64,000 nt of DNA from the human T2T-CHM13v2.0 reference genome, Homo sapiens, in NCBI RefSeq assembly GCF_009914755.1, contig NC_060925.1; one strand, given 5' to 3'. The translations under genes and the position numbers were made by a program. The notes under the pieces are model-generated. The model did no database searches. It had not been told where the DNA came from and was given only the letters and a program-made list of their open reading frames with translations. Positions 9,059-13,375 of the stretch are shown here, one piece after another; position 1 is the first letter of the stretch, and every line of letters begins with the position of its first letter.

Positions 9059-10268
9059 TCAGCACTTGAGTTTAATTTCAGTGGAACACTCAGCCGGCGA
9101 TCGGCGCCTGCCAGCACATTCCTTCCACACGGCGCATGATTCAGAGCATCACTCGGATGCTTTGGATTTCCAGTTTTGGGAACACCTTAATTGTGTTATG
9201 CCCATACCTCAGACGTTACTCAATGAGTCCAGTGAGGATCGCATCTGTGGGGCAACCAGGGCAGCCTGCAGAATTTACCCTGGCGCTCCTGAGTGTGCCT
9301 GATGAAGCAACAGCACTGCATATTCTAGTGGCCCCACCTGCTTTCACTTTGGACGCCAAGAAACGAGTGTGTCACTTCCTCTCCCAATCAGACTCGGAGA
9401 AGACCCACATTGGCCTTCCCTGCTACTGCGTTAGGATCTGACTGATGCAGTCATTCTCAACTCCCAGGGGCAACAGAATGCCCTTTGCCAGTGACAGCAG
9501 CTGGCCAACGTGACATCCCCCTGGAGCACCCACCTCTGTGCAGTTCAGTGGTCAGAGGTTACACTGCCTCCCTCTCCTCCAGGCAGGGTCAGTCTTATCC
9601 CAGATGGTTCTGGGATCCCTCCCCAGAGTAACTGACTGAATATGAGGAAGCCCTGGAAGATGAAGGGCTCTACAGTTCCTCCTGAAAACTAGCCCCACAA
9701 AAACAAGCAGCAAAAGAACACAGAACATTTATAAAAGTCATATACTTGTTTATCTTCCAGTTCCTCCCTCCCCCACCACCCATCCCAGAGAAAAGAGCAC
9801 GGTCACAGTCAGAACAGGAAATGCATCGTTTACACCAATACCAAAGAGAGAACAGTTAAGCCTCTTGGAAATGCAGCATAGACCAGCATCGGCGCCTCTT
9901 AACCTTTAAAGTGCATGAGAACCACCCGGGGATCTTGTTCAACAAGCAGACTCTGATTCAGTGGGTCTGGGGCCACTGGATGGCTATGCTTCCACCAAGC
10001 CCCTACGGTGATTCCGTGCTATGCTGCTGTTCCACAGACCCTGCTCTGAATGGCAACGGGAAGAAACTCAAGAAGACACCAGGGGACCTGCCTTCGGCTT
10101 CTTGGCCCCTGAGCAAGGTATTTATCACCTTCATCTCCGTGCCTTGGTTGATGGCAAAATGGAACAATAATTTCTCTTATGGAGCTATTAGGGCAATTCA
10201 ATATCAATCCACTCAATAAACAGGATTCTAATGCCTCCCGGGCTAAAGCACTAAAGATGCATGGGTAC

Positions 10269-13112
10269 AGCTCTCCTGGGCGGCTGGAGAAGGAGCTTCT
10301 TCTCTGAGTGCGCCGGTGGCGGCGCCTGCAGACCTAACTAGCTCCAGGACTTTAAAATACTGGAAATCTGTCCCGATCCAAATTCTTTTGCAAGCCAGAT
10401 GATTAACCAGAGGGCACGAAAGGTTGAGAACATTCGACTTCCCTGCAAACCTTGGTATAGATCACTTCCTTTTCTGTTAGGAAACGAAAGGCACCAAAGA
10501 GCACAATGAGTACAAGAAAGCGTCGAGGTGGAGCAATAAATTCTAGACAAGCCCAGAAGCGAACACGGGAAGCAACCTCCACCCCTGAGATTTCCTTGGA
10601 AGCAGAACCCATAGAACTCGTGGAAACTGCTGGAGATGAAATTGTTGACCTCACTTGTGAATCTTTAGAGCCTGTGGTGGTTGATCTGACTCACAATGAC
10701 TCTGTTGTGATTGTTGACAAAAGAAGAAGACCAAGGAGGAATGCTAGGAGGCTGCCCCAGGACCATGCTGACAGCTGCATGGTGAGCAGTGACGATGAGT
10801 TGTTGTCCAGGGACAGAGACGTGTATGTGACTACCCACACTTCCAGAAACACCAGGGATGAGGGCGCTACAGGCCTCCGGCCCTCGGGTACTGTCGGTTG
10901 TCCTATCTGCATGGACAGATATTCAGAGATCGTGCAGAATAGACGTCTCATCGTTTCCACAGAATGTGGCCATGTCTTCTGTAGCCAGTGCCTCCGTGAT
11001 TCCCTGAAGAACGCTAATACTTGCCCAACTTGTAGGAAAAAGATCAACCACAAACAGTACCACTCCATTCATATATGAAGTATTCAGAGACGCCCAGGAG
11101 AGACGGATGGACAATCAGGTTCTCCAGTGGTATCTGCCTCCATTTTCCTGAGCTCAAAAAGACTGTTTTGAAACCCACGTCTGATATGTAAACTGCTCTT
11201 TTGTTTCCAACCCCTTCCTTTTGTTATCTCCAGTTTGATGCTATGGCGCTGGACCCAGGGCCCTCCCAGGCCATCTCTGTTCCTCTGGGGTGGTCCAGTT
11301 CTAGAGTGAGAGAAAGGGAGTCAGGCACACTGGGAATCGTGGTTCCAGTCTGGTTGCAGAACCTGCACATTTGCCAAGAAATTTTCCGTTTGGAAAGTTT
11401 GCCCCAGCTTTCCCGGGCACACCACCTTTTGTCCCAAGTGTCTGCCGGTCGACCAATCTGCCTGCCACACATTGACCAAGCCAGACCCGGTTCACCCAGC
11501 TCGAGGATCCCAGGTGCAAGAGTGGCCCCTTGAGGCCCTGAAAAGACCAATCACTGGACTTCTTCCCTTGAGAGTCAGAGGTCACCCGTGATTCTGCCTG
11601 CACCTTATCATTGATCTGCAGTGATTTCTGCAAATCAAGAGAAGCTCTGCAGGGCAATCCCGTTTCCTAAGAATGAAAAAGTGCAATAAAGGCCATTCGT
11701 TACCTACTTTTCAGCAGCCCACCAGATGTAGCACTATTAGTGTCCCCCTCAGAGGCTTAATGTTGCCTGTGGAGCAGTGCCCATCCCAGCCCGTTTCTGC
11801 CCACCAGTTGTTCTCAGGAACCTTACCCACCATGCTCCAGCGTCCTTCACCTGGCACAGGACATGCAAGATAAATAGGACAGGCACATGTTTGGGTGTCC
11901 TCTCTTTTCTGATAAAATCCATCCGGTGTTTGCCACACGCCCTCCAGTCCTCAGTTCCCACTGCCTAACATCTGCCCCCCGTGTAGATACTGAGAGGTGG
12001 TGGCAGTAATTGTGGCCTTATCAGCCGCTCAGTTCCAGCCTTTTGCCCAGGTCACTGTTGCCCCATGTTCGGAGAACCTGGCCCACCTGACTTGGCTTTC
12101 TCATCCTTCCCAACCCCGTGCCGTTTATTTCAGAAGCCCACTGGGCTTGGATGCTTTGGGCCTTTGACTGCTCCATAGGTTATGACTGGTGAAACAGGGG
12201 CCCAGAGGACAACCTCTCCTTCACTCCACAGGTATGTGGGAGCCTCAGGTTCGCTCAGGGGCAGCAAAGTGGCCCAAGCTGCCCCTGACAGCACAGGGCC
12301 TGGCGGTGGCTAACGAGAGAGGCCTTACAGTGCCGGCATGCCTCCTCTTCCGCTGCCCTCCTTCCTCAGAGGGCTTCAAGCAAAACAAACAGCCTTTTCG
12401 TGTGAAACATCTTCAGGGTGGGAAAGGGGCCACTTCTGGCTTTGTTAGCAATAACTGACCTTCAGTTTACCCTTCTGAAGGAGAAGGGACTCAGCACAGA
12501 ATTCACTTTAGACGGGGCTGAAGGAGTGTCCCTCCTCTATGTGAAAAGAAAATTGTTTTATTCTTCATTCTGACTTTTTAACTGTTTGGCTCACTTCCAG
12601 TTAGTTTGAATGAAAATAATAATTTTCTACTTGGAGTTGAAGAGGGCAGAATCCTCAGCTCCCATCATTGTGATGTGTAGCGTGTCTGCCCCCTGACTGG
12701 ACATCATTGCCATTAACTTTCTTCTGGGCATCACGGGAATGTCACAATGCCCAGACTTGGAGCAAGGCAACCTTGGAGTCAGTCCACTAATAAAATATGG
12801 TAACACCCATTTTAAAATTTCTTTAAGTTTTATCCTTGAAGACAACTTCAGTGGTTAATTATAAAAGTTGTGTACTTCGTCCTAAATTAAATTGATGAAA
12901 AGATTTAAAAATGTGTTTTGTTTCTACTATTCAGAAACTGCAAACTAGGGAAAGGTTGGTATGAAAAAATGTCTTTCCTTTTTTCAATGTACATAGTTCA
13001 ACTCTTTCTTTGTTACATTTAAACTATATCCATGGATATCAGTCTGCTTTGGACTCCTCTGCTAGTGTTAAAGATGGAAATAAAACCATTAATTTGAACC
13101 AAAAAAAAAAAA
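10269..13112 (+). pseudogene. RNF4: Full-length processed retrocopy of RNF4 mRNA (5'UTR, CDS, ~2-kb 3'UTR, poly(A))
   Basis: Intronless; AATAAA at 13079-13084; A tract 13101-13112; 16-bp TSD AAAGATGCATGGGTAC at 10253-10268 and 13110-13125. Confidence 0.97.
10506..11078 (+). CDS. Intact 190-aa RNF4-like ORF (4 SIMs + C3HC4 RING); expression unknown
   Basis: SIMs IELV, IVDL, VVDL, VVIV; Arg-rich motif; RING CPIC..CGH..C..C..CPTC; same length as RNF4 with no stop or frameshift. Confidence 0.6.
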   Translation: MSTRKRRGGAINSRQAQKRTREATSTPEISLEAEPIELVETAGDEIVDLTCESLEPVVVDLTHNDSVVIVDKRRRPRRNARRLPQDHADSCMVSSDDELLSRDRDVYVTTHTSRNTRDEGATGLRPSGTVGCPICMDRYSEIVQNRRLIVSTECGHVFCSQCLRDSLKNANTCPTCRKKINHKQYHSIHI

Positions 13113-13375
13113 GATGCATGGGTACGCGCATGTAGAAAAGCACACAGAAAGTGTCAGAGGATTTACAGATTTTATAATTACCGAAATGACTCGTTTACCT
13201 AGCAATAAGATTTTCCACATAAGATAGTATGGCTTTCACAAAAGGAAGCTGAGGCCTGGTAAAAAGTGATCATCTTGTAAATAGATTGGGTGTTAAATTC
13301 CAGGTTTACTCTTCATACCCTCCAACTTTTCTAAATTGCCAAGTGAACACTGGCTGTCTCTCTACTATGGCCTGA

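What the first reader, a model, noticed from the sequence alone, without database searches (positions are those of the whole stretch)
10506..11078. Intact RNF4 retro-ORF carrying Y189H: candidate natural dominant-negative SUMO-targeted ligase
Seen in sequence: an uninterrupted 190-codon ORF with 4 SIMs and all 8 RING zinc ligands. Its C-terminus is KQYHSIHI, and codon 189 (11070-11072) is CAT. From recall, human RNF4 ends KRYHPIYI. Human Y189 corresponds to rat Y193, the residue that contacts donor ubiquitin across the RING dimer, and I recall engineered Y193H staying dimeric while losing ligase activity. The E2-contact residues M136 and R177 are retained. Inference: if translated, the protein would bind poly-SUMO chains and could heterodimerise with RNF4 while not priming E2~Ub. 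That would make it a STUbL decoy affecting PML-body turnover, arsenic response and DNA repair. An RNF4 pseudogene may already be annotated here; the coding potential and this lesion are the point.
Basis: partly seen in the sequence, partly recalled or inferred. Interest (0 to 1): 0.9.

Follow-up and report, generated by a model that had tools for sequence, protein, structure and literature searches.

The report
Intact-ORF RNF4 processed pseudogene
This is the already annotated retrocopied pseudogene of the human SUMO-targeted ubiquitin ligase RNF4; its reading frame is still open, but it looks like a recent, neutrally decaying copy rather than a working natural inhibitor.

Summary
Window 10506-11078 (+) is an uninterrupted 190-codon ORF ending KQYHSIHI, and codon 189 is CAT. 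It lies in a full-length processed copy of RNF4 mRNA (10269-13103): eight exons joined exactly, AATAAA, a short A-tail and a perfect 16-nt target-site duplication. The copy is antisense in FAM89A intron 1.

It differs from the chr4 parent at 98 of 2826 aligned bases. There are 11 amino-acid changes, not one. Six are in or beside the RING: S131G, G138R, G146R, R184Q, P187S and Y189H. Four of these hit positions kept in at least 113 of 119 amniote RNF4 proteins.

Nonsynonymous changes are not depleted (12 seen, 7.4 expected if neutral). Pairwise omega is about 0.3, not significantly below 0.5 (P=0.136). An open frame of this size and age has roughly a 0.06-0.25 chance under neutrality.

However, the same paper shows that Y193H heterodimers with a Tyr-bearing partner are active, so heterodimer poisoning is unlikely. 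Only SIM-based competition remains possible.

No expression data could be consulted. One weak oddity: codons 1-71 have 0 nonsynonymous and 6 synonymous differences.

The parts
10253..10268 (+). 5' target-site duplication AAAGATGCATGGGTAC
   Evidence: Exact 16-nt direct repeat with 13110-13125. It is the only direct-repeat family in 10150-13250.
10269..10505 (+). Leader copied from RNF4 exon 1 (last 80 nt) and exon 2 (5'UTR part)
   Evidence: Aligns to G000:C4 exons with exact exon-exon joins. The flank upstream of 10269 is unrelated to the parent. There are 12 mismatches in 236 aligned bases and 2 one-base indels.
10399..10509 (+). 36-codon upstream ORF whose TGA overlaps the main ATG
   Evidence: In the parent mRNA the same ATG opens only 6 codons.
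10506..11078 (+). Intact 190-codon RNF4-derived ORF (stop included)
   Evidence: It has 27 of 573 bases different from the parent CDS and no indel.
10611..10715 (+). Region of the four SUMO-interaction motifs (residues 36-70), identical in protein to the parent
   Evidence: No amino-acid change in codons 1-71. Residues 41-65 match the solved RNF4 SIM peptide 2MP2_C, E=1.9e-9. The exact SIM boundaries are recalled, not tested.
10899..11036 (+). RING finger (C132 to R177), all eight zinc ligands kept
   Evidence: Pfam zf-C3HC4_2/zf-RING_2 match 132-177. Alignment to 4PPE, 3NG2 and 4AP4. G138R and G146R lie inside it; S131G lies just before it.
11056..11072 (+). C-terminal tail changes R184Q (11056), P187S (11064) and Y189H (11070; codon CAT 11070-11072)
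11079..13103 (+). Copy of the RNF4 3'UTR
   Evidence: Aligns to the last parent exon: 59 mismatches in 2017 aligned bases and 8 indel events.
13079..13084 (+). AATAAA polyadenylation signal copied from the parent
   Evidence: Read. It lies 19 nt before the end of homology at 13103.
13104..13109 (+). Remnant of the untemplated poly(A) tail
   Evidence: The A-run is 13101-13112. The parent genomic sequence continues with TATC after CAAA. The last three As also belong to the duplication.
13110..13125 (+). 3' target-site duplication

Best explanation
Window 10269-13103 is the annotated RNF4 processed pseudogene (LOC644006). A full-length spliced RNF4 mRNA was reverse-transcribed and inserted by the L1 machinery into intron 1 of FAM89A, antisense to the host and without the parent's promoter. 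Since then it has drifted without detectable constraint. The 573-nt frame has simply not yet been hit by a stop or a frameshift. Y189H is one of 11 random amino-acid changes. Most likely no protein is made, and the locus has no role in SUMO-targeted ubiquitylation.
For: Retrocopy anatomy (shown):
- Seven exon-exon junctions of the chr4 gene are joined exactly, including a 10-nt microexon.
- AATAAA and an A-run are present.
- There is a perfect 16-nt target-site duplication.
- The parent is on another chromosome.

Drift:
- In the 3'UTR polarised by the older chrX copy, 15 changes fall on the retrocopy and 18 on the parent, over 1104 columns, so both look neutral.
- With UTR-calibrated, CpG-aware rates, a neutral retrocopy should carry 7.4 nonsynonymous changes. 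It carries 12 (P(>=12)=0.07), so there is no deficit.
- Pairwise omega is about 0.3 (hand calculation). It is not significantly below the 0.5 expected for a neutral copy against a constrained parent (binomial P=0.136).

Where the changes fall:
- S131G, G146R, P187S and Y189H hit positions kept in 118, 117, 113 and 112 of 119 other amniote RNF4 proteins.
- E99L replaces a position that is acidic (E or D) in 114 of 119.
- The mouse RING is identical to the human parent's.

Chance of an open frame:
- P(no new stop)=0.71.
- P(no indel)=0.08-0.28, from 10 indel events in 2253 UTR bases.
- 3 of 4 polarisable indels lie on the retrocopy lineage.

Context:
- CpG o/e is 0.0-0.70 in the 1.4 kb upstream, and a new 36-codon uORF abuts the ATG.
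- The annotation table supplied with the finding gives no transcript model for the pseudogene.
- Intact RNF4 retro-ORFs recur elsewhere: gibbon, squirrel, rabbit and deer-mouse models are labelled 'RNF4-like'.
Against: - The frame is open over 190 codons, while the UTRs collected 10 indels. That is only mildly unlikely, but it is in the direction of constraint.
- Codons 1-71, the SUMO-binding half, have 0 nonsynonymous and 6 synonymous differences. Codons 72-190 have 12 and 9 (Fisher P=0.02). P(0 of 11 events)=0.007 if the split is taken as prior, but 0.13 after correcting for choosing the window.
- If the neutral rate is calibrated on the synonymous sites instead of the UTRs (15 seen against 5.6 expected, P=0.0008), omega on the retrocopy lineage falls to about 0.6.
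- No expression, ribosome-profiling, proteomic, population or cross-species data could be consulted, so absence of expression is inferred, not shown.
Confidence: 0.85

Rival explanations
1. Translated poly-SUMO decoy. The ORF is expressed in some tissue. The protein keeps four SIMs and binds poly-SUMO chains, but its RING cannot prime E2~ubiquitin as a homodimer. It would then shield SUMOylated substrates from RNF4, as overexpressed RING-dead RNF4 does.
For: - The ORF is intact, and the SIM half is unchanged at protein level with 6 synonymous differences.
- Y193H/Y189H is inactive as a homodimer, with low activity when SUMO chains are added.
- Cys-to-Ser RING mutants of RNF4 act as dominant negatives on overexpression, which the authors attribute to SIM binding.
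Against: - There is no promoter signature, no transcript model in the annotation table supplied with the finding, antisense placement in an intron, and a uORF ending on the ATG.
- RNF4 is about 100 nM in cells, so a decoy would need comparable abundance.
- A heterodimer with wild type should stay active, which removes the 'poison' route.
- The N-terminal signal is not significant after correction (P=0.13).
- Overall omega is not significantly below 0.5.
- Three further near-invariant RING-region positions are hit, as expected from decay.
Confidence: 0.06
2. RNA-level role only. A transcript through the copy would act as a non-coding RNA. It could share microRNA sites with RNF4 through the about 97% identical 2-kb 3'UTR, or act as an antisense transcript to FAM89A.
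For: - 2017 aligned bases of 3'UTR are kept at 97% identity (59 mismatches).
- The copy is antisense inside FAM89A, per the annotation table supplied with the finding.
Against: - The high identity is explained by young age: parent and copy changed equally (18 against 15).
- No transcript is annotated and no promoter-like CpG enrichment is present.
- No paper mentions the locus.
Confidence: 0.05
3. Active second RNF4 ligase: the protein is made and still ubiquitylates poly-SUMO substrates.
For: - Zinc ligands, M136, R177 and SIMs are kept.
- Y193H keeps low activity with SUMO chains.
Against: - Tyr189 is replaced. It is Tyr in 112 of 119 relatives and His in none.
- Y193H is described as inactive in autoubiquitylation and lysine discharge without SUMO chains.
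- S131G, G146R and P187S also hit near-invariant positions.
Confidence: 0.01

Closest known systems
Human RNF4 (parent gene, G000:C4:2467908-2514631, eight exons)
   Same: Same 190-residue length. 179 of 190 residues are identical, including the SIM half, the eight zinc ligands, M136 and R177. The 5'UTR and 3'UTR are also copied.
   Different: No introns and no parent promoter, and it lies on chr1. There are 11 amino-acid changes, including Y189H and three others at near-invariant RING-region positions.
Engineered RNF4 Y193H (rat) / Y189H (human), Rojas-Fernandez et al. 2014, PMC3991395
   Same: The same residue is changed to the same amino acid. The mutant is described as unable to engage the ubiquitin of E2~Ub.
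   Different: The engineered mutant has a single change in an otherwise wild-type RING and complements an E2-binding mutant. The pseudogene adds S131G, G138R, G146R, R184Q and P187S, whose effects are untested.
Dominant-negative RNF4 Cys-to-Ser RING mutants (used in PMC3541966)
   Same: SIMs intact and ligase defective. The authors attribute the effect to SIM binding without ubiquitylation.
   Different: Those are overexpressed constructs that destroy zinc binding. Here zinc ligands are kept and expression is unknown.
Other RNF4 retrocopies
   Same: All derive from RNF4 mRNA. In this genome they lie on chr15, chrX, chr6 and chr4. Predicted 'RNF4-like' proteins P0006 (Symphalangus) and P0018 (Nomascus) also have intact ORFs.
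   Different: The chr15 copy is old (51% protein identity, 2 TGA). The chrX, chr6 and chr4 pieces are 3'UTR fragments. Each gibbon model shares only one of the 11 human changes and both carry S117, so they look like independent insertions (inference).

Membership tests
L1-mediated processed pseudogene (retrocopy) | Colinear with the spliced mRNA, all introns removed | tested here: met
   Eight parent exons (80, 166, 115, 80, 10, 160, 49 and 2187 nt) align end to end with GT-AG introns absent.
L1-mediated processed pseudogene (retrocopy) | Poly(A) tail directly after the mRNA 3' end, downstream of AATAAA | tested here: met
   AATAAA is at 13079-13084, homology ends at 13103, and the A-run is 13101-13112 against TATC in the parent genome. 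The tail remnant is short (about 6 nt).
L1-mediated processed pseudogene (retrocopy) | Flanking target-site duplication | tested here: met
   Perfect 16-nt repeat at 10253-10268 and 13110-13125.
L1-mediated processed pseudogene (retrocopy) | Located away from the parent and lacking its promoter | tested here: met
   The parent is on contig C4 and the copy on C1. Sequence upstream of 10269 is unrelated to the parent's. No CpG island lies upstream.
Functional retrogene | Ka/Ks against the parent significantly below 0.5 (criterion recalled from the retrogene literature) | tested here: not met
   12 nonsynonymous and 15 synonymous differences give omega of about 0.3 with mutation-weighted sites. 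Binomial P=0.136 against 0.5.
Functional retrogene | Intact ORF | tested here: met
   The chance expectation is about 0.06-0.25, so this is weak evidence.
Functional retrogene | Transcription and translation; ORF kept in orthologous loci | not testable with these tools
   No RNA-seq, CAGE, Ribo-seq, proteomics or primate genomes are held. No paper names the locus.
Active RNF4-type STUbL | Tandem SIMs binding poly-SUMO | tested here: met
   Residues 1-71 are identical to the parent. This is sequence only; binding was not tested.
Active RNF4-type STUbL | RING with eight zinc ligands and E2-binding M136/R177 | tested here: met
   The residue roles come from PMC3991395.
Active RNF4-type STUbL | C-terminal Tyr189 (rat Tyr193) that engages donor ubiquitin across the dimer | tested here: not met
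   His at 189. It is Tyr in 112 of 119 relatives and His in none. Y193H is described as inactive.
Active RNF4-type STUbL | RING dimerisation | not tested
   S131G, P187S and Y189H lie in the terminal strands of the RING domain. Their place in the dimer interface is recalled, not tested. No complex prediction was run.

The most novel reading that the evidence does not exclude
The retro-ORF is translated at low level. Selection has kept only its SUMO-binding half (codons 1-71: 0 nonsynonymous, 6 synonymous differences) while the RING decays. That would give a hominoid-specific SIM-only poly-SUMO shield that competes with RNF4 for substrates rather than poisoning it through heterodimers.
Probability: 0.05. 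Interest if true: 0.6.

Novelty: already known. Interest (0 to 1): 0.15.

Why it matters
If the copy were expressed, humans would carry a natural version of a laboratory loss-of-function RNF4 mutant. That could modulate PML-body turnover, arsenic response and DNA-protein crosslink repair.

As the evidence stands, it is an ordinary young processed pseudogene. The practical points are these:
- Its 96.5% identity to RNF4 mRNA can mis-map reads, primers, siRNAs and peptides.
- An open frame in a 573-nt retrocopy of this age is expected by chance in roughly one case in four to sixteen.
- The published complementation result argues against 'heterodimer poisoning' for any Y189H-type RNF4 variant.

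Tried and rejected
- **Outgroup for the first 29 codons.** I extended the alignment of the old chr15 copy. The alignment was too poor to polarise the five N-terminal synonymous differences. Which lineage they fell on stays open.
- **Polarising the CDS with the chr15 copy**. The result was noisy (140 outgroup-only differences in 477 columns). Three 'parent-lineage' calls at codons 146, 184 and 187 contradict the protein conservation. I read them as parallel changes.
- **Primary structural papers on RNF4** (PMC3326525, PMC3442243). These are not held. Statements on which residues form the dimer interface are therefore recalled only.
- **Gibbon models as orthologues.** I considered treating P0006 and P0018 as orthologues of this copy and rejected it. 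Each shares one of 11 changes, and both carry S117.
- **Structure and complex prediction.** I considered predicting the RING homo- or heterodimer and did not run it. Such predictions are insensitive to point changes and would pass by likeness to solved RNF4 dimers, so they would not move my odds.
- **Earlier-findings tool.** It was closed.
- **Literature searches.** Searches for LOC644006, RNF4P1, 'RNF4 pseudogene', 'RNF4 retrocopy', 'RNF4 retrogene', 'RNF4 processed pseudogene' and 'RNF4P' found nothing relevant. The three 'RNF4-like' hits, by their listing titles and abstract starts, concern potato, TOPORS and a snail. Supplementary tables were not searched and could list the locus.
Full report
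**What is in the sequence.**
- Window 10506-11078 (+) is an open frame of 190 codons plus TGA.
- Its product matches solved RNF4 RING chains: human 4PPE with E=1e-41, rat 3NG2 with E=1.5e-40, and the fused rat RING dimer 4AP4. Residues 41-65 match an RNF4 SIM peptide (2MP2_C).
- Pfam RING models match residues 132-177.
- The C-terminus is KQYHSIHI and codon 189 is CAT at 11070-11072.
- All eight zinc ligands, M136 and R177 are present.

**Where it came from.**
- Searching the window's own genome with the protein and with the DNA found the parent gene on contig C4, at 2467908-2514631.
- I mapped eight exons with GT-AG borders. One is a 10-nt microexon at C4:2510731-2510740 that the six-frame search had missed.
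- Joined in a script, they give a 2847-nt mRNA with a 190-codon CDS ending KRYHPIYI.
- Window 10269-13103 is colinear with that mRNA from 80 nt before the end of exon 1 to the cleavage site.
- The copy carries AATAAA at 13079-13084 and an A-run at 13101-13112. A perfect 16-nt direct repeat lies at 10253-10268 and 13110-13125, and it is the only direct repeat in the region.
- This is the textbook anatomy of an L1-mediated processed pseudogene. It agrees with the RefSeq annotation of LOC644006 at 10269-13102.
- The copy lies antisense in intron 1 of FAM89A, according to the annotation table supplied with the finding.

**Divergence and age.**
- Differences from the parent mRNA are 12 of 236 (5'UTR), 27 of 573 (CDS) and 59 of 2017 (3'UTR). 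That is 98 of 2826, or 3.5%.
- There are 10 indel events, all in the UTRs.
- I polarised 1104 columns of 3'UTR using the older chrX copy as outgroup. This put 15 changes on the retrocopy, 18 on the parent, and left 4 ambiguous. A chr6 fragment gave 4 and 4 over 340 columns.
- Both lineages therefore changed by about 1.4-1.7%.
- With recalled hominoid substitution rates, this suggests an insertion some 15-25 million years ago. That is an inference; no primate genome was available to check it.

**Tests for constraint.**
- The CDS has 11 changed amino acids (12 base changes; E99L is a double change) and 15 synonymous differences.
- I took CpG-transition, other-transition and transversion rates from the UTR alignment. 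A neutral retrocopy beside a parent that accepts only synonymous changes should then show 7.4 nonsynonymous and 5.6 synonymous differences.
- Observed nonsynonymous changes are not depleted (12; P(>=12)=0.07).
- Synonymous differences are in unexplained excess (15; P=0.0008).
- Expressed as a ratio, omega is about 0.3 pairwise. This is not significantly below the 0.5 expected for one neutral and one constrained lineage (binomial P=0.136).
- Calibrated on synonymous sites, omega on the retrocopy lineage would be about 0.6. Calibrated on UTRs it would be about 1.6. Neutrality lies between the two.

**Is an open frame surprising?**
- From the same rates, P(no new stop) is 0.71.
- From 10 indels in 2253 UTR bases, P(no indel in 570 nt) is 0.08 if all indels fell on the retrocopy and 0.28 if half did.
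- Of four indels that the chrX copy can polarise, three are on the retrocopy.
- The product is roughly 0.06-0.25 (hand calculation).
- The locus was picked because its frame is open, so this carries little weight.
- Intact RNF4 retro-ORFs also recur elsewhere. The protein search lists 'RNF4-like' models in gibbon, ground squirrels, grey squirrel, kangaroo rat, deer mouse and rabbit.
- The two gibbon models (P0006, P0018) each share only one of the 11 human changes, and both carry S117. They look like independent insertions (inference).

**Where the changes fall.**

I aligned the 120 best hits listed, out of 362 with E<=1e-10. None was dropped, so partial models, isoforms and 'RNF4-like' models are included. 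I counted the other 119 at each changed position.

| Change | State in the other 119 proteins |
|---|---|
| S131G | S in 118 |
| G146R | G in 117 |
| P187S | P in 113 |
| Y189H | Y in 112, H in 0 |
| G138R | G in 107 |
| E99L | E or D in 114, L in 0 |
| E72K | K in 26 |
| V92M | V in 108, I in 8, M in 2 |
| P113S | S in 52 |
| A116T | T in 36 |
| R184Q | Q in 55 |

- E72K, P113S, A116T and R184Q are ordinary variants.
- The mouse RING is identical to the human parent's.
- Six changes in or beside a domain that is otherwise frozen are what relaxed constraint looks like. Y189H is one of them, not a lone lesion.

**The proposed mechanism.**
- The human equivalents used in that paper are Y189H and M136A+R177A.
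- The same passage describes complementation. E2 binds the Y193H subunit, ubiquitin engages Tyr193 of the partner, and robust activity returns when SUMO chains are present.
- By the same logic, a heterodimer of the pseudogene protein with wild-type RNF4 would keep one productive arrangement per wild-type protomer. Heterodimerisation should then not poison RNF4. This is my inference, and it assumes the other RING changes spare E2 binding.
- What remains plausible is competition for poly-SUMO chains through the SIMs. This is how overexpressed Cys-to-Ser RING mutants behave (PMC3541966, passages).
- That route needs abundance comparable to RNF4, estimated at about 100 nM with a dimer Kd of about 180-200 nM.

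**Expression context.**
- The copy starts inside exon 1 and brings no promoter.
- The 1.4 kb upstream has CpG o/e of 0.0-0.70 and GC of about 0.5.
- The annotation table supplied with the finding lists no masked repeat of 100 bases or more, no RefSeq functional element and no transcript model there.
- An indel in the leader has turned a 6-codon parental uORF into a 36-codon uORF whose stop overlaps the main ATG.
- None of this excludes transcription. No expression data were available.

**The one oddity.**
- Codons 1-71, the SUMO-binding half, show 0 nonsynonymous and 6 synonymous differences. Codons 72-190 show 12 and 9 (Fisher P=0.02).
- Given 11 nonsynonymous events placed by mutational opportunity, P(none in 1-71) is 0.007.
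- The chance that some run of at least 71 codons is free of them is 0.13.
- The gibbon copies do carry N-terminal changes.
- I could not polarise the N-terminal synonymous sites.
- This is the basis of the novel case, which I rate at 5%.

**Comparison with what is known, and verdict.**
- The locus is an annotated pseudogene.
- No paper in the searchable library names LOC644006 or RNF4P1, or describes an RNF4 pseudogene, retrocopy or retrogene. Supplements were not searched.
- It meets every tested criterion of a processed pseudogene.
- It fails the defining Tyr189 feature of an active RNF4 ligase, and it does not pass the Ka/Ks test for a functional retrogene.
- The coincidence with an engineered mutant is neat, but it is best explained as one random hit among eleven.

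Noticed in passing
G000:C4:2510731-2510740 (locus L018): The parent RNF4 gene has a 10-nt microexon (ATTGTTGACG) with AG/GT borders, coding part of the fourth SIM. The six-frame protein search skipped it, and the retrocopy carries it spliced in at window 10709-10718.
   Followed up: yes
window 10399-10509: A one-base insertion in the retrocopy leader (near 10477) lengthens a 6-codon parental uORF to 36 codons. Its TGA overlaps the main ATG.
   Followed up: partly
window 10506-11078: Synonymous differences from the parent are in excess over the UTR-calibrated expectation (15 against 5.6, P=0.0008). By my own count, non-CpG divergence in the CDS is about 1.8 times that of the UTRs. This is unexplained.
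   Followed up: partly
L002 (G000:C15:42539677-42540180); L009 (C23:55821360-55822520); L010 (C6:73539600-73539953); L016 (C4:79282822-79282940): There are four further RNF4-derived pieces in the genome. One is an old chr15 copy of the CDS (51% protein identity, 2 TGA). The other three are 3'UTR fragments at 74%, 84% and 76% identity.
   Followed up: partly
proteins P0006, P0018: The gibbon 'RNF4-like' (Symphalangus) and 'RNF4' (Nomascus) models look like separate intact retro-ORFs. Both have S117 and many private changes. P0018 also has G138R (in the human parent this codon's first base is a CpG G) and P0006 has P187S.
   Followed up: partly
window 10691-11068 (- strand): A 125-codon ORF runs antisense to the RNF4-derived frame. 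I did not examine it and assume it is a by-product of the open sense frame.
   Followed up: no
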